From assembly GCA_041645555.1 (NCBI GenBank), contig JBAZPX010000001.1:127479-191478 (forward strand): a stretch of 64,000 nt of DNA, written 5' to 3'. The DNA comes from Patescibacteria group bacterium (lineage in GTDB: Bacteria; Patescibacteriota; Patescibacteriia; Patescibacteriales; JAQTRU01). The position numbers were made by a program, and so were the translations under genes. Position 1 is the first letter of the stretch. The number at the start of each line of letters is the position of its first letter. Of the stretch, positions 5,347-53,622 are shown piece by piece. The notes below the pieces were generated by a model, which was not told where the DNA came from, searched no databases, and saw only the letters and a list, made by a program, of their open reading frames with translations.

Positions 5347-6711
5347 CTAAACCCCCTTCCTACTCGCTATGGTAGTAATAGTTTTTAAAATAATAGACAG
5401 GTCAAGATAAATTGATCTGTTTTTTATGTAAAATAAATCGTATTGAAGTTTTTTTAAGGTGTCTTCCTGGCTCGGGGAATGGTACTCGCCGGAAACCTGA
5501 TCCCAACCGGTTAGGCCGGGCTTAACCAGCAGCCTTTCATTGTAAAAAGGGATTTTTCTTTCCAGCTCCTCTATTAACTCCGGCCTTTCCGGGCGCGGGC
5601 CGACAAAGCCCATTTCCCCATATAGAATATTTATTACCTGAGGAATTTCGTCAATCCTGGTCTTGCGCAGCCAGGAGCCGAATTTAGTAATGCGGTTATC
5701 ATCTTTGGCGGTCGGAGAAAAATTATTATTTATAACCGTCATGGTGCGGAATTTAATTATTTTGAAAGGCTTCTTGCCCTTGCCGATTCTAGTCTGCCTA
5801 AAGAAAACCGGGCCCTGGCTTTCCAGTTTTATGGCTACCCCGATAATCGGCCAGAAAACCAAAGTCCCGAATAAAATTAATAAAGCCAGGATAAAATCAT
5901 AAAGACGCTTTATAAAACCAAATAAAGATTTTCGGCCTTCGCTTAAATTTTCCAAAAACCACATCTGGTTGATTGATTCAATCGGGATCCGGCCGGTAAT
6001 GTTTTCGTAAAAATTAGGCAGGCTGGTATAGCTGATCTTTAGGGGCAGGCAGCTGAAAAGAATGGTCCGCAGTTCCTCTGACTGATGGGGGTCGGAAGTG
6101 AGAATAATATTAGTAATTTTTTTAGAACTAATTAGGGGATACAAGCGGGAAACGTCATTAAAGATTGGGACACTGTCAATATTCCTCTGCCCGGTATTTT
6201 TATCATCAACCACGAAAGCAACGTTAAAACCGAGATGCGGTTTCTCCCTTAATTCTTTTATTAATTCCAGCACCTGGTTATTTAGACCGACAAAAGCGAT
6301 ATTATTTTTCGGCAAATATGATTTTAAAGACCAATTAAAAAATTGCCGCCAGAGAGAAAATAAAACAGCAAAGATGATTACGTAAATTAAAAGATTCCTT
6401 TTTGGGGCAATGCTTATCTGCGGCGTTAAATAAAAGAAGGCGACAGACAGCAAGCTGGTTATCAAAAGACCTTTGGCGGTTAAGCGGAAAAAATTTGCGT
6501 TGTTGGCAGCCAGATTCAGGTTGTATAAACTAGAAATATAGAAAATTAGAATCCAAGCCGCAAAAATTATAGTAAAAGGCCCGACATGGCTTTGCCAGAG
6601 CTCGCTAGTCGGCTTGTTCCAGTAGCGGATTAGAAGCGTTAAATAAAGGGAAAGATAAAGGACCCCGATATCACCGGCCAAAAGGATAATTTTTTTTAAT
6701 TTATTGTTCAT
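5347..6711 (-). CDS. polyprenyl-phosphate sugar phosphotransferase (WbaP/exopolysaccharide priming transferase family)
   Basis: N-terminal multi-TM region. C-terminal bacterial sugar transferase domain with ...FVGPRPERPELIEELERKIPFYNERLLVKPGLTGWDQV. Confidence 0.85.
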   Translation of the reverse strand: MNNKLKKIILLAGDIGVLYLSLYLTLLIRYWNKPTSELWQSHVGPFTIIFAAWILIFYISSLYNLNLAANNANFFRLTAKGLLITSLLSVAFFYLTPQISIAPKRNLLIYVIIFAVLFSLWRQFFNWSLKSYLPKNNIAFVGLNNQVLELIKELREKPHLGFNVAFVVDDKNTGQRNIDSVPIFNDVSRLYPLISSKKITNIILTSDPHQSEELRTILFSCLPLKISYTSLPNFYENITGRIPIESINQMWFLENLSEGRKSLFGFIKRLYDFILALLILFGTLVFWPIIGVAIKLESQGPVFFRQTRIGKGKKPFKIIKFRTMTVINNNFSPTAKDDNRITKFGSWLRKTRIDEIPQVINILYGEMGFVGPRPERPELIEELERKIPFYNERLLVKPGLTGWDQVSGEYHSPSQEDTLKKLQYDLFYIKNRSIYLDLSIILKTITTIASRKGV

Positions 6712-8115: not shown

Positions 8116-9195
8116 ATGTTTAAAAACAAACTGAATTTACTAATTATAACGATGGCTATGGCGGTTCTAGTCTCTGGCTGTTCCATTAGTTTTAAGGGTG
8201 GAGAAGGTGGCGGCAATGACGGCGGCGTTTATGTGACTGCTAACCAAGGCAATACCTGGGTCCAGAAAGTTTTAATTCCGACCACCAGCGGCCAGCCGGG
8301 CAGTTTCGGCAATTTAAGCGCTTCTTCTTTGGCTATGGATCCAAGCGATCCGGGAGCGGTTTATTTCGGCAGCGTAGACAACGGTCTCCTTTATACTTAT
8401 AATGGAGCGGGAGGCTGGTTTCTGGCCAGCGGTTTGGGAAAGGTGACAATTAATACTATAGCCGTTGACCCGGGCTCAAAATGCATAATTTATGTCGGTA
8501 TTGGAAATAAAGTTTATAAATCAAACGACTGCAATCGGACTTGGGCCCAGGTTTATTACGATAATGATGTTAACACGAGAGTTGAGACTATCGCTATAGA
8601 CCACTATAATAGCGTTAATGTTTATGTCGGCACTTCAAGGGGCGAGGTAATACAGAGTTCTGACCGGGGAGGGAGTTGGAAAACTATCGGCCGCCTTGAA
8701 AGCAGCGTGCAAAAAATTATCGTCGGTCCGGCTGACAGCCGCTTAATCTTTGCCGCCACGGCTAAAAAGGGAATTTTCCGTTCAACCGACAGCGGCGCCA
8801 ATTGGGTAAGCCTAGAAGAAAACCTAAAGGACTTTAAAGACATTCTTAGCTTTAAGGATTTAGTTGCTGCTCCTACTGAGAAAGGTTTAATATTTCTGGC
8901 GACGAATTATGGAATATTAAAGTCAACCGATAACGGCGATAATTGGACAAAAATTGAGTTAATTACCCCGGAAAAGAAAGCAACCATTAATTCTATAGCC
9001 GTTGGCCCGAAGAATTCCAAAGAAATTTATTACGTTACCAATACGACTTTTTACCGTTCTCTAGACGGCGGGACGAACTGGGCGACAAAGAAACTGCCAA
9101 CTACCCGGGCCGGCTGGAAATTGCTGGTTAATAAGGAGAATCCGAATATCATTTATTTGGGCGTAAGAAAAATAGAGGATAATAGGGGTTTTTAA
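8116..9195 (+). CDS. BNR/Asp-box repeat lipoprotein (beta-propeller, sialidase/Ycf48-like fold)
   Basis: Signal peptide with lipobox LVSGC. Six S-x-D-x-G-x-[TN]-W Asp-box motifs (TANQGNTW, SNDCNRTW, SSDRGGSW, STDSGANW, STDNGDNW, SLDGGTNW). Confidence 0.7.
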   Translation: MFKNKLNLLIITMAMAVLVSGCSISFKGGEGGGNDGGVYVTANQGNTWVQKVLIPTTSGQPGSFGNLSASSLAMDPSDPGAVYFGSVDNGLLYTYNGAGGWFLASGLGKVTINTIAVDPGSKCIIYVGIGNKVYKSNDCNRTWAQVYYDNDVNTRVETIAIDHYNSVNVYVGTSRGEVIQSSDRGGSWKTIGRLESSVQKIIVGPADSRLIFAATAKKGIFRSTDSGANWVSLEENLKDFKDILSFKDLVAAPTEKGLIFLATNYGILKSTDNGDNWTKIELITPEKKATINSIAVGPKNSKEIYYVTNTTFYRSLDGGTNWATKKLPTTRAGWKLLVNKENPNIIYLGVRKIEDNRGF

Positions 9196-9199
9196 TTAC

Positions 9200-9265
9200 T
9201 AATTTATCACCGCCTCGGCGGGATCCCGCCTTCAAATATTATAATAAAGTGGCGGGACAAATTAC
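9200..9265 (+). repeat. dispersed ~60-nt palindrome-containing intergenic element, copy A (upstream of frr)
   Basis: ttatcaccgcctcggcgggatcccgccttcaaatattataataaagtggcgggacaaat. Contains the 12-nt perfect palindrome gcgggatcccgc and tcccgcc/ggcggga pairing. Confidence 0.8.
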
Positions 9266-11369: not shown

Positions 11370-11440
11370 CAATTATCACCGCCTAGGCGGGATCCCGCCT
11401 TCAAATATTATAATAAAGTGGCGGGACAAATATACAAATT
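11370..11440 (+). repeat. dispersed ~60-nt element, copy B (upstream of hpf)
   Basis: aattatcaccgcctaggcgggatcccgccttcaaatattataataaagtggcgggacaaat, about 95% identical to copy A. Confidence 0.8.
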
Positions 11441-11890: not shown

Positions 11891-11905
11891 GCGCTAAGAT
11901 AAAAA

Positions 11906-11935
11906 GAAAGGGAGGAAGACTCCCTTCTTTTTTTA
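11906..11935 (+). terminator. rho-independent terminator after hpf
   Basis: aagggag-gaaga-ctccctt stem-loop followed by a T8 run. Confidence 0.7.
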
Positions 11936-11993
11936 GATATTTTGAACTTTGACAAAACGACAAAAAACATAAAAAGCAACAAGGAGGCTGGGA

Positions 11994-13697
11994 ATGAAAA
12001 CTCCAACATTAGCAATCGGTTCTGGCGGAGATCGTGCCGATGAGCATAGCGGTTTTTCTTCAATTTATGATGGACGCGAAAGACATTTTACGCTAGAAAC
12101 GTTGCCGCATTCTTGCGCGGTAAAAAACGCCGAAGTCTTAAAAGGAGTATGTTTGAATCTTCGCTCTGATGCGATGAACAGAATTACTGTTTGCGAGAAA
12201 TACGGTTGCAGCCCGCCGTGGCTAAAACAGGCGAGTGGCGGGGCTCATAATCTTAGCTTAGATGCCGAAGCTGAGAGAGCCAGAAAAAATGCGGCGGCTG
12301 ATAATGGCGGAAGAGCCGAGGGCAAAGTCAAAACTCCTTTTTCGCTTCCCAAGATTAGAGGAGAGGGCAAGGCAGCGAAAGCTAAAAAGCCGGATGATAC
12401 CTTAAAAGCCGTAGAAGCAGATCCAGTTGCAGCTGAGGCAGCTCTGGCGGATATAAGGGCTGAAGGAGCAGAGGAAGTCGGGGCTGAAACCCTTGTTCTT
12501 GTTCCCGGGGATGGGGAGGATGAAGAAGCCGGCGGAGTTGACGCAATTGAATCAGAAATAGATGCAGCTGTGGTTGTTGCAACCAGGGCGGATATGGGGG
12601 TTGATGAAAACAGGGAAGATGATGGGGCTGAAACTTCGGTTTCTACTGCCGAGGATGATTCTGGGACAGGGGAAGGACCTTCATGGGGAGAGGAAGTGGA
12701 AAAAATTCCCCCTTCAATTTTAGAGGGGGCGGTTTTAATGAAGATCCCGGTTGATAAGATATACCCCAACCCTGAACAGCCGAGAGAATTCTTTGACAAA
12801 GAGAAACTTGGTCAGCTAAGAAAGAATCTTAGAAAGAAAAACCAGAAAGTGCCCGTTACCGTTATCAGAACGGAACAAGGCTTTGAATTAGTTGACGGAG
12901 AAAGGAGATGGCTTTCTGCTAAAGCAGGAGGCTTACAAGAAGTTTTCGCAATTGTTCTTGTCTGTTCAGATATTGATATTTTTGAAGAGGCAGCCATTGC
13001 TAACCTTGGCAGGGAGGGTCATACTCCGATGGAGTATGCCAAAACCGCGGCAAAGTTGATTGCCAAGTTAGAAAAAGTTGTAGAAAATGGCAAACCATTA
13101 AAGAGAGGGGTGATAAATGAAAGAGTGGCAGTAGCGTTGTGCATGTCTGTCCAAACAATGTTGAACTATTTGGACCTTCTTAAAGTTGCTCCTGAAATCC
13201 AAGAGCAAATAGTCCTCCATTCGCGGGACAAAGACTCGGGTGTTCCTTCCGGTCTGGCCGTTGAATTAGCCAAGTACATCCCCGATCATCAAAAGCAGAG
13301 GCGGTTATTGGAAAAAATTCAAAATGAGGGGATGTCAGTTGCCAGAGCCAAGCTATTCATCAAAAATCATGCCGGGCCAGAAGCGGGGAAACCGGGAAGC
13401 AGAAAAAGACAGCTGTCTGACGATTATCCCATTTTTTGCAATTCTTTGAAGATTATGGAAGATAGAGTCGATCTAGCCTTGGAGATGGACGCCCCAAAAA
13501 TTATCATGCTGTTTTATAGTCGGGATGGTAAAGACAAGGCAAGGGCTCTTGAGCGTTTGGATAGGATTATGAAAAAACTCCAAAAGTTGCGGGAAACTGT
13601 CCACAACGAGGGCAGTATCAAAGATGTGGTAACGGACAGTGTTAAAAAGCTTTGGGCGGCTGATAAGCCCGGTGGGCAAGGAGAAACGGAGGAATAA
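11994..13697 (+). CDS. ParB/Srx-like nuclease domain protein with a long acidic Ala/Glu/Asp-rich N-terminal region
   Basis: Central ParB N-terminal domain (KIPVDKIYPNPEQPREFFDKEKLGQLRKNL...VIRTEQGFELVDGERRWLSAKAGG, i.e. the GERRxxA box). The N-terminal ~240 aa are low-complexity and acidic. Local GC is ~50%, against ~38% for neighbouring genes. Confidence 0.6.
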   Translation: MKTPTLAIGSGGDRADEHSGFSSIYDGRERHFTLETLPHSCAVKNAEVLKGVCLNLRSDAMNRITVCEKYGCSPPWLKQASGGAHNLSLDAEAERARKNAAADNGGRAEGKVKTPFSLPKIRGEGKAAKAKKPDDTLKAVEADPVAAEAALADIRAEGAEEVGAETLVLVPGDGEDEEAGGVDAIESEIDAAVVVATRADMGVDENREDDGAETSVSTAEDDSGTGEGPSWGEEVEKIPPSILEGAVLMKIPVDKIYPNPEQPREFFDKEKLGQLRKNLRKKNQKVPVTVIRTEQGFELVDGERRWLSAKAGGLQEVFAIVLVCSDIDIFEEAAIANLGREGHTPMEYAKTAAKLIAKLEKVVENGKPLKRGVINERVAVALCMSVQTMLNYLDLLKVAPEIQEQIVLHSRDKDSGVPSGLAVELAKYIPDHQKQRRLLEKIQNEGMSVARAKLFIKNHAGPEAGKPGSRKRQLSDDYPIFCNSLKIMEDRVDLALEMDAPKIIMLFYSRDGKDKARALERLDRIMKKLQKLRETVHNEGSIKDVVTDSVKKLWAADKPGGQGETEE

Positions 13698-13701
13698 TAA
13701 T

Positions 13702-13740
13702 AAAAAACCCGCTAGCCAGTAAGGCAGGCGGGTTTTTTCT
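13702..13740 (+). terminator. rho-independent terminator (A-run/T-run flanked)
   Basis: aacccgc...gcgggtt stem followed by T6. Confidence 0.65.
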
Positions 13741-13821
13741 TATTATTGCTTTTTTTAGGAAAAAGTTATATAATAATTTTGTTAATAATTCTTATCGCGC
13801 TGAAAGCGTGCTTTTTAATAC

Positions 13822-26405: not shown

Positions 26406-26425
26406 TATCCCGCCTAGGCGGGATA
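26406..26425. repeat. perfect 20-nt palindrome tatcccgcctaggcgggata
   Basis: Perfect dyad symmetry. Shares the cccgcctaggcggga core with the 60-nt dispersed repeat copy at 11370-11440. Confidence 0.8.
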
Positions 26426-31496: not shown

Positions 31497-32540
31497 ATGT
31501 TTAATAAAATTTTGGGAAAATTTAGCAAGGATTTGGGCATTGATTTGGGTACAAAAAACACCCTGGTTTATTCTAGCGATAAAGGCATAGTTATAAATGA
31601 GCCGTCGGTGGTGGCCGTCAACATGCGGACAGACGAGGTTTTGGCCGTCGGCGAAGAGGCGAAAAAGATGGTTGGAAAAACTCCGGCTCATATCCAGGCC
31701 ATCAAGCCTTTGATAGACGGAGTTATTTCTGATTTTGAAGTGACGGAAAAAATGCTGAAATATTTTATTGATAAAGTCCACAGCGAAAGTTTTACGCTGG
31801 CGCCGCGCCCGCGAGTCGTAATCGGCATTCCTCTAGATATTACCGAGGTGGAAAGAAAGGCGGTGGAAGACGCGGCTAAATCCGCCGGCGCCCGCCAGGT
31901 TTTTTTAGTGGAAGAATCTATGGCCGCGGCGATAGGCGCGCGCCTGCCGGTTCTGGAGCCGACCGCCACGATGATAGTTGATATAGGAGGCGGGACAACG
32001 GAAATCGCCGTTATTTCTTTAGCCGGGGTGGTTACCTGGAAGTCTTTAAGGCTCGCCGGCAATGAGCTTGATAATAACATCGTTGAATATATCAGGGAAG
32101 AATTTAATATTTTGGTCGGAGAACAGCTGGCGGAAGAAGTAAAAATAAAAATAGGCTCGGCCACTCCGCTAAAAACTTCCTTAGAGATGGAAGTTCGGGG
32201 GAGAGACTTGATTAACGGTTTGCCGAAAGCGGTAATTATAAATGACAGCCAGGTAAGAGAGGCAATGAGCAGAACTATAAAACAGATTGTGGATAATATA
32301 AAAATCACTCTAGAAACAACTCCGCCGGAATTAGTTTCTGATATTTATGAGCATGGGATATTTTTAACCGGAGGCGGAGCTCTTTTGCGCGGCATTGATA
32401 AAGAGATAGCCCAGCACACCAAAATTCCGGTTCGAGTGGCGGATGATCCCCTGACTTGCGTTGTGAGAGGAACAGGGATTCTTTTGTCCGATCCGGAACT
32501 TTTAGACAAGGTGGCTTTGCCGAGCAGCGAGGAGCTTTAG
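31497..32540 (+). CDS. mreB: rod shape-determining protein MreB
   Basis: Actin-like ATPase motifs DLGIDLGTKNTLVY, VIVDIGGGTTEIAVISL, IFLTGGGALLRGI. Confidence 0.9.
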   Translation: MFNKILGKFSKDLGIDLGTKNTLVYSSDKGIVINEPSVVAVNMRTDEVLAVGEEAKKMVGKTPAHIQAIKPLIDGVISDFEVTEKMLKYFIDKVHSESFTLAPRPRVVIGIPLDITEVERKAVEDAAKSAGARQVFLVEESMAAAIGARLPVLEPTATMIVDIGGGTTEIAVISLAGVVTWKSLRLAGNELDNNIVEYIREEFNILVGEQLAEEVKIKIGSATPLKTSLEMEVRGRDLINGLPKAVIINDSQVREAMSRTIKQIVDNIKITLETTPPELVSDIYEHGIFLTGGGALLRGIDKEIAQHTKIPVRVADDPLTCVVRGTGILLSDPELLDKVALPSSEEL

Positions 32541-49068: not shown

Positions 49069-49119
49069 ATAGTACGAAAACACAAAAACACAAAAAAGAT
49101 TAAATATTTTTTAAATTAA

Positions 49120-49355
49120 AACGCCACGGGTTCTTCGCCCGTGGCTTCTTCGTATCCCGCCGTTTCCAGAAATTTTTTTAGTTTTAAAAAGTTTTTATTA
49201 AGTAGCGGCTTCGCCTTTCTTTAAAAAATTTTTCGAAATTTCAATGCGCCGAAACGGCGGGATATACCGATCCGCCCAGCTGCTTGCGAGCAGCTGGGGG
49301 CTTCCGGTATATAAAAAGACGGGCTCGGTGTAAAACACACACGAGCCCGTTTAAC
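49120..49355. other. GC-rich multi-hairpin non-coding region (candidate structured RNA)
   Basis: gccacggg-ttcttcg-cccgtggc. A 13-nt long-range pair atcccgccgtttc / gaaacggcgggat separated by ~80 nt. cccagctgc-ttgcga-gcagctggg nested inside tataccg / cggtata. Terminal acgggctcg-...-cgagcccgt followed by ttt. Confidence 0.4.
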
Positions 49356-49409
49356 ATAAAGATAAGGGATAAAGCTTACGTCTCTCGGTAACTTATTCGC
49401 TCCCAGCGC

Positions 49410-49928
49410 TTATGCGGTGCATTGGAAAATAATTGCCAATACTTCCTCTGGCAAAAACTCGTCAAATTTTTCTTCGAGCCTTTCCAAGTTCACCGGGCGG
49501 ATGAGGAGATATGGCCAACAGAGTTGGTCAACGCTGAGTGCCGTGTGCCAGCTGGAAAAATCGACGTTCGAAAAGATTATTGTCCTTTTTTCGGTCCCGA
49601 CGGTTATTGTCCGGTTGAGTTCATTGAAGCTCACCCGTCCGTTAGTGGACCGTTCGATCAATTCCATTTGGTCTTGGCAGCCGGTAAACGTTCGGGGCAG
49701 AACCAGAACAGGGGACAGGCAGTCCGCTGGCGTAGGTGGAAGAAACTCCGGATAAGATCCCCTGTTGACAAAACTCCACAAGAGATCGAGATATCTTTGT
49801 TTTTCTACTCGGGTCCCAGGATTCTGGAACAATCCAGCCCGAAAACATTTTTCCATCTGGCTTGTTATAAAACCACGCATTTCTACGAACTTGGTTCCTC
49901 CCCCGCGTTGCGCAAGTGTAGGCATCAT
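49410..49928 (-). CDS. hypothetical ORF in a high-GC patch (coding status uncertain)
   Basis: Weak RBS (aaaggcgggaaaaATG). Overlapping + strand ORFs of similar length exist, so this could be non-coding. GC about 50%. Confidence 0.25.
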   Translation of the reverse strand: MMPTLAQRGGGTKFVEMRGFITSQMEKCFRAGLFQNPGTRVEKQRYLDLLWSFVNRGSYPEFLPPTPADCLSPVLVLPRTFTGCQDQMELIERSTNGRVSFNELNRTITVGTEKRTIIFSNVDFSSWHTALSVDQLCWPYLLIRPVNLERLEEKFDEFLPEEVLAIIFQCTA

Positions 49929-50078
49929 TTTTCCCGCCTTTCTTTGTTGGAGTGTCAGTTTCTAGAAATCATTTGATTCTTTTATAATCTATTTTTGTAA
50001 GAGCAATTTTATTTTTTAATAAAGATTAAATCAGGTTAACATATTTTATATTTTTTGTCAATTTTTTAAATAAAAAAG

Positions 50079-50112
50079 GCAAATCATTAATGCGATTTGC
50101 CTTCCTTTTTTT
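50079..50112. terminator. bidirectional rho-independent terminator
   Basis: A6-ggcaaatc-attaatgc-gatttgcc-ttccT7. Confidence 0.7.
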
Positions 50113-50116
50113 CTTC

Positions 50117-50407
50117 TTATTTCGGTATGCGGAACAGAAATCCATCGGCACTTGGTTCTTCTCCCGTAAATATCTTTACCGGCAGGCTAAGAATATCTTT
50201 GCCAAGAGTTCCGTTTTTGCATTCGTGCAATTTTACTTCTCCATCCGAAATGGCCGGATTAGCGATTGCCAAAATTTTCACGAGATGAAATTCTCCCGGA
50301 TTAGCGCCATCTCCGCCCTCGCCCGTAAATACATGGATTGTCCGGCTTGGCTCAATCATCCCGACCGTTATTTCACGGTACCCAGCCAAAAATTTCTCCC
50401 TTGTCAT
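50117..50407 (-). CDS. small conserved-looking hypothetical protein (96 aa)
   Basis: Strong RBS AGGAGGaaacgATG, terminator directly downstream on the minus strand. Sequence MTREKFLAGYREITVGMIEPSRTIHVFTGEGGDGANPGEFHLVKILAI... looks globular. Confidence 0.5.
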   Translation of the reverse strand: MTREKFLAGYREITVGMIEPSRTIHVFTGEGGDGANPGEFHLVKILAIANPAISDGEVKLHECKNGTLGKDILSLPVKIFTGEEPSADGFLFRIPK

Positions 50408-50473
50408 CGTTTCCTCCTTTTTGTAGTTTGGGGAACAGGCTTGTTTTTAACAGTTTACTAAAATATTTTTTTC

Positions 50474-50502
50474 TTGTCAAATAAAGCTAAAGTTGCTATA
50501 AT
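50474..50502 (+). promoter_or_regulatory. sigma70-type promoter TTGTCA-17-TATAAT
   Basis: ttgtca at 50474-50479, 17-nt spacer, tataat at 50497-50502. Upstream of the large membrane-anchored protein gene. Confidence 0.65.
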
Positions 50503-52614: not shown

Positions 52615-53622
52615 ATGTTTATAAAACGAATAGGCATTGACCTGGGAACAACTTATACTTTGGTTTATCTGCCTAAGCGCGGTATTGTTATTAATGAACC
52701 TTCGGTGGTGGCAATCTCCATGGAAGACAGAAAAATTTTAGCCGTGGGCAATGAAGCCAAAGATATGCTTGGCCGCACTCCCGATACCATTATTGCCTTA
52801 AAGCCGCTAAAGGACGGGGTAATTGCCGATTATCGCACGACCGAGGCCATGCTTAGGTATTTTATAAATAAGACTTTGGGCGGGATTCATCTTTTTCGGC
52901 CCGAGGTTATGGTGGCGGTGCCGGCCGGAATTTCTTCAACCGAAAGGCGGGCTGTCACCGAAGCGACAATCGCGGCCGGAGCTAAAGCCGCTTATATAAT
53001 AAAAGAGCCGATTGCGGCGGCGATCGGGGCTGATATCCCGATTGGTTCGGCTTCCGGGCATATGATTGTGGATATTGGCGGCGGGACAGCGGAAATGGCC
53101 GTTATCTCTTTGGGCGGGATTGTGGCTTCAACTTCGGTCCGGGTCGGGGGCAATAAATTTGATGAAGCTATCTTGGAATATATCCGGCGGAAATATAATT
53201 TAGCCATTGGCGAAAGAACTTCTGAGGAGGTAAAAATAAATATTGGCTCCGCTCTATTTCTTGAGGATAAATTAACAATGGAAATACGCGGCCGGGATAT
53301 TATTACCGGCCTGCCGCGCGCCATTAATGTTACCAGTGACGATGTCACTGAAGCCATTCAGAATGAATTAGAAGCTATTATTTCTGCGGCCAAAAGAGTT
53401 TTGCATAATACTCCGCCGGAATTGGCAGCTGATATTATGGATAAGGGCATGGTAATGGCTGGAGGCAGTTCACTCCTGCGAAATATTGACCAACTGCTGT
53501 CCCGCACTACCGGTGTCCCGGTTTACGTGGCGGACGAACCGCTTCTCTGCGTCGCTAAAGGGACGGGGATAGCGCTGGATAACTTAGATAGCTATAAACG
53601 CAGTATTCTCGCAACGAAGTAA
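52615..53622 (+). CDS. MreB/Mbl-like actin homolog (second paralog)
   Basis: IGIDLGTTYTLVY, MIVDIGGGTAEMAVISL, MVMAGGSSLLRNI. Confidence 0.85.
   Translation: MFIKRIGIDLGTTYTLVYLPKRGIVINEPSVVAISMEDRKILAVGNEAKDMLGRTPDTIIALKPLKDGVIADYRTTEAMLRYFINKTLGGIHLFRPEVMVAVPAGISSTERRAVTEATIAAGAKAAYIIKEPIAAAIGADIPIGSASGHMIVDIGGGTAEMAVISLGGIVASTSVRVGGNKFDEAILEYIRRKYNLAIGERTSEEVKINIGSALFLEDKLTMEIRGRDIITGLPRAINVTSDDVTEAIQNELEAIISAAKRVLHNTPPELAADIMDKGMVMAGGSSLLRNIDQLLSRTTGVPVYVADEPLLCVAKGTGIALDNLDSYKRSILATK

What the first reader, a model, noticed from the sequence alone, without database searches (positions are those of the whole stretch)
11994..13697. Compositionally foreign ParB-like nuclease-domain protein with a ~240-aa acidic low-complexity N-terminus
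The gene and its flanks run at roughly 50% GC with a different codon preference (gca/gct/gag-rich) from the ~38% GC housekeeping genes on either side (hpf, secA). It is bracketed by two clean terminators. The product has a ParB/Srx domain with the GERRW box but no obvious ParA partner or centromere context. The N-terminus is an Ala/Glu/Asp-rich disordered region. Standalone ParB-like nucleases occur in mobile elements and defence or anti-defence contexts. This looks like a horizontally acquired single-gene insertion.
Basis: partly seen in the sequence, partly recalled or inferred. Interest (0 to 1): 0.6.

Follow-up and report, generated by a model that had tools for sequence, protein, structure and literature searches.

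The report
Orphan ParB-type DNA clamp, clade-specific
The gene encodes a full-length ParB-family DNA-binding nucleotide switch with no ParA partner; a small group of Patescibacteria gained it between hpf and secA long ago and it has evolved fast since, so it is neither a fresh foreign insertion nor a nuclease.

Summary
The ORF (11994-13697, +, 567 aa) is real. It has a strong ribosome-binding site and a terminator on each side.

Its GC (46.7%) is not foreign. The excess sits in codon positions 1 and 2 of an Ala/Glu/Gly/Asp-rich stretch. GC3 (41.4%) is average, and secA next door is 45% GC. Synonymous codon choice is nevertheless the most atypical in the window (z = -4.7).

The product is not a stand-alone nuclease domain. 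It has a ParB CTPase-fold domain, a ParB-type HTH DNA-binding domain and a helical C-terminal domain. These follow a four-cysteine N-terminal module and an acidic disordered linker.

It belongs to a ParB subfamily in which Box III (ENLQR) reads xN[FL]xRxGH, so the catalytic Glu is lost. That subfamily lacks the ParA-binding motif (0/77 versus 36/44 canonical ParBs) and lacks an adjacent parA (0/10 versus 38/40).

The gene sits between hpf and secA in four related genomes. In 80 more distant Patescibacteria loci it is absent, and hpf abuts secA in 25 of them.

It evolves far faster than its flanks: 34-64% identity against 75-91% for SecA.

The most likely function is a ParA-independent CTP-gated DNA clamp of the Noc/KorB/VirB kind. 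Its target and role are unknown.

The parts
11901..11933 (+). Terminator hairpin after hpf. An A-tract and a T-tract flank it, so it could act in both directions.
   Evidence: Inverted repeat I2. Terminator scan. Hairpin conserved in 5 loci.
11940..11979 (+). Promoter-like A/T-rich leader. It holds -35-like hexamers TTGAAC (11942-11947) and TTGACA (11949-11954). The -10 element is not assigned.
   Evidence: The block TTTTGAACTTT(G/A)ACA is conserved in window, L001, L005 and L008. Promoter function is inferred.
11981..11987 (+). Shine-Dalgarno sequence AAGGAGG, 6 nt before the ATG at 11994.
   Evidence: Sequence. GGAGG is conserved before the start codon in L001 and L009.
11994..13697 (+). CDS for a 567-aa orphan ParB-family protein.
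   Evidence: ORF list. An identical protein is annotated as ParB/RepB/Spo0J in a Patescibacteria MAG. dN/dS = 0.27 against the L001 orthologue.
12072..12233 (+). N-terminal four-Cys module (residues ~27-80; C41, C53, C67, C72, P74 and W76 invariant). Presumed to bind zinc.
   Evidence: Alignment of 5 clade members. AF2 pLDDT 63-80 with four strands plus helices. dN/dS = 0.23. No homologues found elsewhere. Zinc binding is inferred.
12246..12410 (+). Lys-rich, mixed-charge disordered linker (residues 85-139).
   Evidence: Composition. Mostly pLDDT < 50.
12411..12698 (+). Acidic disordered region (residues 140-235; 30 D/E versus 3 K/R). It carries a repeated motif E.D..AA..A.AD[IM], and it is the source of the local ~52% GC.
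   Evidence: Motif conserved in P0001, P0002, P0034, P0035 and P0005. pLDDT < 50 apart from a helix at 134-158. dN/dS = 0.49.
12729..13013 (+). ParB CTPase-fold domain (residues 246-340). Box I is Q262-P-R264, Box II is G302-E-R-R-W306, and variant Box III is A336-N-L-G-R340-E-G-H343.
   Evidence: Pfam ParB_N. Alignment to M. xanthus ParB. pLDDT > 90. Family invariants.
13014..13403 (+). ParB-type helix-turn-helix DNA-binding domain (residues 341-470).
   Evidence: HTH_ParB scores 19.3 bits here. It is found in 6 of 7 clade members, best E = 1e-7. Foldseek TM-score (normalised to target) is 0.66-0.75 to Noc 7nfu, Caulobacter ParB 6t1f and KorB 8qa9. Lowest dN/dS in the gene, 0.10.
13404..13658 (+). 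Helical C-terminal domain (residues 471-555) after a basic linker RKRQLSDDY. It is the best-conserved part across the clade. Presumed to mediate dimerisation.
   Evidence: Alignment. AF2 pLDDT 90-96 with helices 474-497, 499-508 and 512-536. No PDB fold match. Dimerisation is inferred.
13690..13750 (+). Terminator after the ParB-like gene. The core hairpin is AACCCGC...GCGGGTT followed by a T-run.
   Evidence: Inverted repeat I1, 28-nt arms, 86% complementary. Conserved in 5 loci.
13746..13774 (+). secA's own promoter: TTGCTT, 17 nt, TATAAT.
   Evidence: This block is nearly identical in window, L001, L005 and L008. It shows the ParB-like gene is a separate transcription unit. Function is inferred from the consensus.

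Best explanation
The gene encodes a ParA-independent ('orphan') member of the ParB family.

Architecture:
- It has a nucleotide-binding ParB CTPase-fold domain, a ParB-type HTH DNA-binding domain and a conserved helical C-terminal domain.
- A lineage-specific N-terminal extension precedes them. This is a four-Cys (probably zinc-binding) module tethered by a long disordered linker that is largely acidic.

Proposed mechanism:
- By analogy with ParB, Noc, KorB, VirB and BisD, it most likely binds a specific DNA site through the HTH.
- It then binds CTP (or another NTP) through Box I, II and III, closes into a dimeric clamp and slides or spreads on DNA.
- The Box III catalytic Glu is replaced by Ala here, and by Ala/Ser/Cys across the whole subfamily. 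Hydrolysis is therefore expected to be slow or absent, giving a long-lived nucleotide-bound state.
- The N-terminal module would be the output or regulatory part. It sits where ParB carries its ParA-binding peptide and Noc its membrane helix.
- The cellular role is more likely gene regulation or nucleoid organisation than ParA-driven segregation.

Evolution:
- The gene entered the hpf-secA junction in the ancestor of a narrow Patescibacteria clade.
- It has been kept there as its own transcription unit, and it evolves several times faster than its neighbours while remaining under purifying selection.

Status of the steps:
- Shown: the domains, motifs, fold, synteny, evolutionary rates, and the absence of ParA and of the ParA-binding motif.
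- Inferred: NTP binding, clamp formation, weak hydrolysis, zinc binding and the cellular role.
For: DOMAINS AND FOLD
- ParB_N is above Pfam's cut-off, and TIGR00180 scores 68.6 bits against a cut-off of 58.45.
- HTH_ParB is found in 6 of 7 clade members.
- In the AF2 model the core (residues 240-555) has pLDDT > 90.
- The top Foldseek hits are CTP/CDP-bound ParB (7bnr, 6sdk), Noc (7nfu), Caulobacter ParB (6t1f) and KorB (8qa9).

NUCLEOTIDE-BINDING RESIDUES
- Q262, P263, R264, G302, R305 and N337 are invariant across 78 subfamily members. R304, R340 and H343 are at least 90% conserved.
- These correspond to Caulobacter Q58, R60, R103/R104, N136 and R139, which are needed for CTP binding.
- The residue equivalent to Caulobacter E135 is Ala. 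The E135A mutant binds CTP but does not hydrolyse it (PMC8367383).

INDEPENDENCE FROM ParA
- No member of the variant Box III group has the N-terminal [LIVMF]G[RK]G[LIVM] motif (0/77), against 36/44 canonical proteins.
- No variant member has an adjacent ParA (0/5 wider members and 0/5 clade loci), against 38/40 canonical ParBs.

IT IS A FUNCTIONAL GENE
- dN/dS is 0.27 overall, 0.10 in the HTH and 0.23 in the N-terminal module.
- It has its own Shine-Dalgarno sequence, terminator and conserved leader.

PLACE AND AGE
- The same slot is occupied in L001, L005, L008 and L009/L010.
- It is absent from 80 outgroup loci.

PRECEDENT
- Orphan ParBs are described as common and functionally diverse (bioRxiv 10.1101/2025.10.10.680097).
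Against: - No DNA target was found. There is no canonical parS in the window, and the only conserved palindromes in the flanking spacers are the terminators.
- The C-terminal domain matches neither Pfam's ParB dimerisation domain nor any PDB fold. Dimeric clamp closure is therefore unproven.
- HTH_ParB is below Pfam's cut-off in this particular protein (19.3 versus 22.6 bits).
- Nucleotide specificity cannot be read from sequence. The survey paper's section headings state that the fold also binds other NTPs and that neither sequence analysis nor AlphaFold 3 predicts specificity reliably.
- Only 64 kb of the genome is visible. A ParA or a canonical parAB operon elsewhere cannot be excluded.
Confidence: 0.6

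Rival explanations
1. It is the organism's working centromere-binding ParB for chromosome segregation. It would act with a ParA encoded elsewhere, or by loading SMC without ParA.
For: - It has the full ParB-like three-part layout, and its best sequence and fold matches are chromosomal ParB/Spo0J proteins.
- It sits in a housekeeping neighbourhood.
- The rest of the genome was not visible, so no other ParB has been shown to exist.
Against: - The subfamily lacks the ParA-binding motif (0/77 versus 36/44) and an adjacent parA (0/10 versus 38/40).
- The catalytic Glu is lost, although hydrolysis recycles canonical ParB.
- There is no parS in 64 kb.
- The gene is absent from 80 related Patescibacteria loci at this position.
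- Its evolutionary rate is several times that of neighbouring housekeeping genes (dN 0.255 versus 0.03-0.07).
Confidence: 0.15
2. It is a domesticated mobile-element (phage-derived) ParB-like gene kept for genetic conflict, for example silencing or excluding invading DNA. Alleles would be replaced in place by recombination.
For: - A variant-Box III member (SNFGREAH) lies between the portal and head-morphogenesis genes on phage contig L173.
- Divergence is very fast: ParB-like identity is 34-64% where SecA is 75-91%.
- There are two sequence types, A and B, whose distribution disagrees with SecA relatedness. L008 has SecA 89% identical to the window but carries type B.
- Four-fold-site divergence exceeds that of the flanks in A-versus-B comparisons (0.55 versus 0.41, p = 0.036; 0.75 versus 0.52, p = 0.0014).
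- Codon usage is atypical in the window and in L001 (z = -4.7 and -4.9).
- N-terminal modules have been swapped: an XRE-type HTH in P0035 and larger Cys-rich modules in P0034.
Against: - PADLOC found no match.
- There are no neighbouring defence or mobile-element genes, no tRNA and no flanking repeats.
- The closest phage and plasmid proteins are only about 30% identical, no closer than ordinary ParBs.
- The four-fold-site tests rest on few sites (34-131) and are not corrected for multiple tests.
- Weak codon bias in a lowly expressed gene would explain the codon data.
Confidence: 0.15
3. One reading: a recently acquired, compositionally foreign, stand-alone ParB-like nuclease from a mobile or defence context.
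For: - Synonymous codon usage is atypical.
- The gene is absent from more distant relatives.
- PHROGs contains 'ParB-like partition nuclease' families that weakly match clade members.
Against: - It holds the same position in four related genomes. dS to the nearest one is about 0.96, similar to the flanks at 0.65-0.72.
- GC3 is normal.
- HTH and C-terminal domains are present.
- No mobile-element hallmarks were found.
Confidence: 0.05

Closest known systems
Chromosomal ParB/Spo0J (M. xanthus 7bnk/7bnr, B. subtilis 6sdk, T. thermophilus 1vz0, C. crescentus 6t1f)
   Same: - It has the ParB_N CTPase fold with Box I QPR and Box II GERRW, the Asn and Arg of Box III, and a ParB-type HTH.
- These are its best sequence hits (E = 6e-19 to 6e-11) and best fold hits.
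   Different: - There is no ParA-binding peptide, no adjacent parA and no parS in the window.
- The Box III Glu is replaced by Ala.
- The C-terminal domain is helical and unrelated to the canonical one.
- It carries a 245-aa N-terminal extension.
Noc (nucleoid occlusion protein, Bacillota)
   Same: - Both are orphan ParB paralogues with the same core layout and no ParA motif.
- The Noc model TIGR04285 aligns over residues 249-488.
- The fold match to 7nfu has a TM-score (normalised to target) of 0.66.
   Different: - It scores 92.5 bits against the Noc cut-off of 315.
- Noc keeps ENLQR and hydrolyses CTP.
- Noc's N-terminus is a membrane-targeting helix, not a Cys4 module plus an acidic linker.
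- The lineage is different.
KorB / VirB / BisD (CTP-dependent ParB-like transcription regulators)
   Same: - It may work like them, as a ParA-independent CTP-gated DNA clamp used for regulation.
- The fold match to KorB 8qa9 has a TM-score (normalised to target) of 0.73.
- One member of the wider subfamily is fused to an ECF sigma factor.
   Different: - Sequence identity is only 16-18%.
- Those proteins are encoded on plasmids or ICEs and have known operators. Here the gene is chromosomal, no operator is known and no partner such as KorA is known.
Orphan ParB proteins as surveyed by Kaljevic et al. 2025 (bioRxiv 10.1101/2025.10.10.680097)
   Same: It fits their definition: clear ParB similarity including the CTPase fold, encoded outside a parAB operon, lacking the ParA-binding motif, and fused to lineage-specific domains that Pfam does not cover.
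   Different: The main text of that paper does not mention Patescibacteria, zinc modules or disordered regions. The variant Box III subfamily seen here is not named there, as far as I read.
Stand-alone ParB/Srx-fold enzymes (sulfiredoxin, ParB-like nucleases)
   Same: They share the roughly 90-residue ParB/Srx fold (sulfiredoxin hits at E about 1e-3 to 1e-4).
   Different: Those proteins lack the HTH and C-terminal domains that this protein has. They match only about 75-83 columns.

Membership tests
ParB/RepB/Spo0J superfamily (ParB CTPase fold) | ParB_N domain (PF02195 / TIGR00180) above the curated cut-off | tested here: met
   PF02195 scores 60.4 bits against a cut-off of 26.3. TIGR00180 scores 68.6 against 58.45.
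ParB/RepB/Spo0J superfamily (ParB CTPase fold) | Box I (QPR) and Box II (GERR) nucleotide-binding motifs | tested here: met
   Q262-P-R264 and G302-E-R-R305 are present. They are invariant or nearly invariant across 78 relatives.
ParB/RepB/Spo0J superfamily (ParB CTPase fold) | Box III ENxxR with the catalytic Glu | tested here: not met
   The sequence is A336-N-L-G-R340. Asn and Arg are kept but Glu is replaced. The same holds for 77 of the 186 proteins collected.
ParB-type DNA clamp (ParB, Noc, KorB, VirB, BisD) | HTH DNA-binding domain following the CTPase fold | tested here: met
   HTH_ParB scores 19.3 bits here, below the 22.6 cut-off. It is found in 6 of 7 clade members (best E = 1e-7). 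The structural match covers about 210 columns of ParB, Noc and KorB, spanning the N-terminal and HTH domains.
ParB-type DNA clamp (ParB, Noc, KorB, VirB, BisD) | C-terminal dimerisation domain | tested here: inconclusive
   A conserved, confidently modelled helical domain is present (residues 471-555). It does not match PF23552 or any PDB fold. Oligomeric state was not testable.
ParB-type DNA clamp (ParB, Noc, KorB, VirB, BisD) | CTP binding and CTP-dependent clamp closure on a specific DNA site | not testable with these tools
   This needs biochemistry. The binding residues are conserved.
Canonical chromosomal ParABS ParB | Adjacent parA gene | tested here: not met
   There is no deviant Walker A protein in the 64-kb window or next to the gene in L001, L005, L008 or L009. 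As a control, 38 of 40 canonical ParBs have one.
Canonical chromosomal ParABS ParB | N-terminal ParA-interaction motif (LG-R/K-GL type) | tested here: not met
   It is absent in all 7 clade members and in 0 of 77 variant-subfamily proteins, against 36 of 44 canonical ones.
Canonical chromosomal ParABS ParB | parS (TGTTNCACGTGAAACA) nearby | tested here: not met
   There are 0 matches at up to 3 mismatches in the window. The rest of the genome was not seen.
Noc | Score above the TIGR04285 cut-off | tested here: not met
   92.5 bits against 315.
   HTH and C-terminal domains are present. Activity was not testable.
Recently acquired genomic islet | Absent at the same site in close relatives, with foreign GC3 and mobile-element marks | tested here: not met
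   The gene is present at the same site in four related genomes. GC3 is 0.414 against a mean of 0.428. There is no tRNA, no flanking repeat and no integrase. Only the synonymous codon choice is atypical.

The most novel reading that the evidence does not exclude
The variant Box III subfamily (xN[FL]xRxGH, no catalytic Glu, no ParA motif, its own helical C-terminal domain) may be a distinct and so far uncharacterised class of ParB-fold switch. It would bind but barely hydrolyse nucleotide.

In this Patescibacteria clade the class would have been recruited, possibly from a phage, as a fast-evolving conflict or regulatory factor. Interchangeable N-terminal sensor or effector modules (Cys4 zinc module, XRE HTH, acidic linker) and two HTH specificity types would be swapped in place at the hpf-secA locus.
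Probability: 0.12. Interest if true: 0.65.

Novelty: new variant of a known kind. Interest (0 to 1): 0.35.

Why it matters
- ParB-fold CTP switches are a recently recognised class of molecular switch, and orphan members are where new functions are being found.
- This case defines, with internal controls, a ParA-independent subfamily that has lost the hydrolytic Glu but keeps the binding residues. That makes it a natural 'locked' variant, useful for asking what CTP hydrolysis is for.
- It also gives a dated example of a gene gained by ultra-small Patescibacteria genomes and then kept under selection while diverging several-fold faster than its neighbours.
- For annotation, the practical lesson is that local GC excess can be purely an amino-acid effect. 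'ParB-like nuclease' and 'partition protein' are both poor labels for this gene.

Tried and rejected
- Canonical parS search with up to 3 mismatches: none found.
- Palindrome census of the window:
  - The only recurrent palindrome, GGCGGGATCCCGCC (9217 and 11386), sits just after genes and looks like a terminator.
  - The palindrome inside the gene at 13021 is at chance frequency (84 comparable ones in the window).
- Footprinting of both intergenic spacers across 5 loci: only terminators, a leader or promoter block and the secA promoter are conserved. No operator-like repeat appears.
- Homology search with the N-terminal Cys4 module alignment: no hits. Pfam finds nothing there either.
- PADLOC defence models: no match for P0001.
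- Phage and plasmid databases: only generic ParB-level similarity, at most 30% identity.
- tRNA, Rfam and flanking direct-repeat searches for integration marks: nothing.
- An internal start at M249 giving a core-only protein: rejected as the main product. The Met is not conserved (Lys in P0002), and the upstream 245 codons are under purifying selection.
- The metagenome scan added only one more clade member (L093, 38% identity). The clade is rare in public data.
Full report
THE OBSERVATION

The ORF at 11994-13697 (+) exists and encodes 567 aa.
- AAGGAGG lies 6 nt upstream of the ATG.
- A hairpin plus T-run terminator follows hpf (11901-11933), and another follows the gene itself (13690-13750).
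- Both terminators are conserved in related loci. So is a TTGCTT-17-TATAAT promoter for secA at 13746-13774.
- The gene is therefore its own transcription unit.

COMPOSITION

The gene is 46.7% GC. The 36 other long ORFs of the window average 41.6% (sd 3.1, maximum 48.1%).
- The flanks are not 38% GC: secA is 45.0%, rseP 44.4% and hpf 39.6%.
- Only 12100-12700 reaches about 52% GC.
- That stretch encodes an Ala/Glu/Gly/Asp-rich segment, with GC1 = 0.64 but GC3 = 0.37.
- Whole-gene GC3 is 0.414 against a window mean of 0.428 (sd 0.048). The GC signal is an amino-acid effect.

- I simulated synonymous choice from the window's usage, conditioned on the amino-acid sequence.
- The gene deviates at z = -4.7 (core -4.6, N-terminal part -1.9). 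This is the strongest of 37 genes.
- GCA is used 15 times against 5.1 expected.
- The L001 orthologue shows the same deviation (z = -4.9). L008 shows less (-2.3) and L009 none (-0.4).

WHAT THE PROTEIN IS

Sequence and fold evidence:
- Pfam finds ParB_N at residues 248-338 (E = 1.8e-16) and a weak HTH_ParB at 373-458.
- NCBIfam's general ParB model passes its cut-off. The Noc model scores 92.5 bits against a cut-off of 315.
- HTH_ParB is found in 6 of 7 clade members.
- The closest solved structures by sequence are chromosomal ParBs and Noc.
- An AlphaFold2 model built on 78 relatives has pLDDT > 90 for residues 240-555, below 50 for most of residues 81-226, and 63-80 for residues 21-80.
- Foldseek returns CTP/CDP-bound ParB, Noc, Caulobacter ParB and KorB over about 210 columns, covering the N-terminal domain plus the HTH.

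This is the clamp-type ParB layout, not a stand-alone ParB/Srx nuclease domain.
- The C-terminal 100 residues form a confident helical domain.
- That domain is the best-conserved part across the clade, but it matches nothing in the PDB.

THE N-TERMINUS IS MODULAR
- Residues ~27-80 carry four invariant cysteines (C41, C53, C67, C72) plus P74 and W76 in five clade members. No relatives were detected elsewhere.
- Residues 85-139 are Lys-rich.
- Residues 140-235 are strongly acidic (30 D/E versus 3 K/R).
- The acidic part holds a repeated, conserved motif E.D..AA..A.AD[IM].
- Other clade members replace the Cys4 module. P0035 has an XRE-type HTH and P0034 has two larger Cys-rich modules.

A DISTINCT ParB SUBFAMILY

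The protein keeps Box I (Q262-P-R264) and Box II (G302-E-R-R305). Box III reads A336-N-L-G-R340-E-G-H343 instead of ENLQRxDL.
- Across 78 aligned relatives, Q262, P263, R264, G302, R305 and N337 are invariant. R304, R340 and H343 are at least 90% conserved.
- In Caulobacter ParB the equivalents of these Arg and Asn residues are required for CTP binding. E135A, the residue replaced here, still binds CTP but does not hydrolyse it (PMC8367383).

Two internal controls show that the variant group does not work with ParA:
- The N-terminal ParA-interaction-type motif occurs in 36 of 44 canonical-Box III proteins and in 0 of 77 variant ones.
- An adjacent deviant-Walker-A ParA occurs next to 38 of 40 canonical ParBs, next to 0 of 5 wider variant members and next to 0 of 5 clade loci.

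Other points:
- Wider variant members sit in ordinary chromosomal contexts.
- One variant member lies between the portal and head-morphogenesis genes on a phage contig.
- No curated family more specific than 'ParB' matches, and PADLOC finds nothing.

HISTORY OF THE LOCUS

Only six representatives in 1.84 billion score below E = 1e-30.
- For four of these I could see the genomic context. Each gene sits in the same place: RRF, RseP, hpf, ParB-like, SecA. L009/L010 have an extra sigma-70 gene before secA.
- In 80 species-representative loci with SecA 50-73% identical, no ParB-like gene lies within 6 kb.
- In those 80 loci, hpf abuts secA in 25. In 19 more, unrelated genes sit between them.
- The gene is therefore a clade-specific insertion into an ancestrally adjacent hpf-secA pair, and it is old enough to be shared by the clade.

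It evolves fast.
- ParB-like identity to the window is 64% (L001), 42% (L008), 34.5% (L005) and 43% (L009).
- SecA identity for the same four is 91%, 89%, 84% and 75.5%.
- Against L001, dN/dS is 0.27 (HTH 0.10, core 0.18, acidic linker 0.49), compared with 0.04-0.10 for the flanks. dS is similar: 0.96 against 0.65-0.72.

There are two sequence types.
- Type A comprises P0001, P0002 and P0032. Type B comprises P0033, P0034, P0035 and P0005.
- They differ most in the HTH region, and their distribution does not follow SecA relatedness.
- Four-fold-site divergence exceeds that of the flanks in some A-versus-B comparisons (p = 0.036 to 0.0014; few sites; uncorrected).
- This hints at in-place allele replacement but does not prove it.

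No sign of recent mobility was found:
- no tRNA;
- no flanking repeats;
- no phage or plasmid relative above about 30% identity.

VERDICT
- It is wrong on recency, on GC foreignness and on 'nuclease'.
- The best reading is an orphan, ParA-independent ParB-type nucleotide-gated DNA-binding protein with weak or absent hydrolysis and a lineage-specific N-terminal effector module.
- Its DNA target, nucleotide and cellular role remain to be found. Whether the genome also has a canonical parAB is the first thing to check.

Noticed in passing
Outgroup loci L018, L019, L025, L031, L033, L037, L054, L056, L072, L075 and others (gap between hpf and secA): The hpf-secA junction is a recurrent insertion point across Patescibacteria. 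In 19 of 80 loci, unrelated ORFs sit between the two genes. By my reading of their sequences these include NDK-, hydrolase-, LexA- and pyruvoyl-decarboxylase-like proteins.
   Followed up: partly
window 9217-9230 and 11386-11399; related palindrome at 26408-26423: The palindrome GGCGGGATCCCGCC recurs just downstream of genes (after the 8116-9195 ORF and after rseP). It probably belongs to a shared terminator type.
   Followed up: no
window 5347-6711 (-): This is almost the only sizeable minus-strand gene in a window otherwise coded on the + strand. Its L001 and L008 counterparts are Bac_transf sugar transferases. Its codon usage is atypical (z = -3.4), as it is in L001 (-3.75) and L008 (-3.0).
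   Followed up: partly
L173 3010-3978 (IMG/VR contig IMGVR_UViG_3300002301_000575): A phage contig encodes a variant-Box III ParB-like protein (SNFGREAH) between the portal and head-morphogenesis genes, with an endolysin nearby.
   Followed up: partly
P0035, P0034; one member of alignment A2: N-terminal modules are swapped within the clade: an XRE-type HTH in P0035 and two larger Cys-rich modules in P0034. One wider subfamily member matches ECF sigma-factor models.
   Followed up: partly
L009 4956-5939 (-) and L010 1688-2671 (-): In this more distant clade member, a sigma-70 family gene on the opposite strand lies between the ParB-like gene and secA. Its codon usage is atypical there (z = -4.6).
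   Followed up: no
window 49100-50500: This stretch breaks the uniform + strand gene order and has GC skew near zero. The only ORFs are a 172-aa minus-strand ORF (49410-49928) and doubtful ones. There is no Rfam match.
   Followed up: no
window 31497-32540 and 52615-53622: Two MreB-like paralogues lie in one 64-kb window, judged from their N-terminal sequences only.
   Followed up: no
window 13020-13038: The palindrome CATACTCC-GAT-GGAGTATG lies inside the gene, over the conserved HTPMEY codons. It is at chance frequency (84 comparable palindromes in the window).
   Followed up: yes
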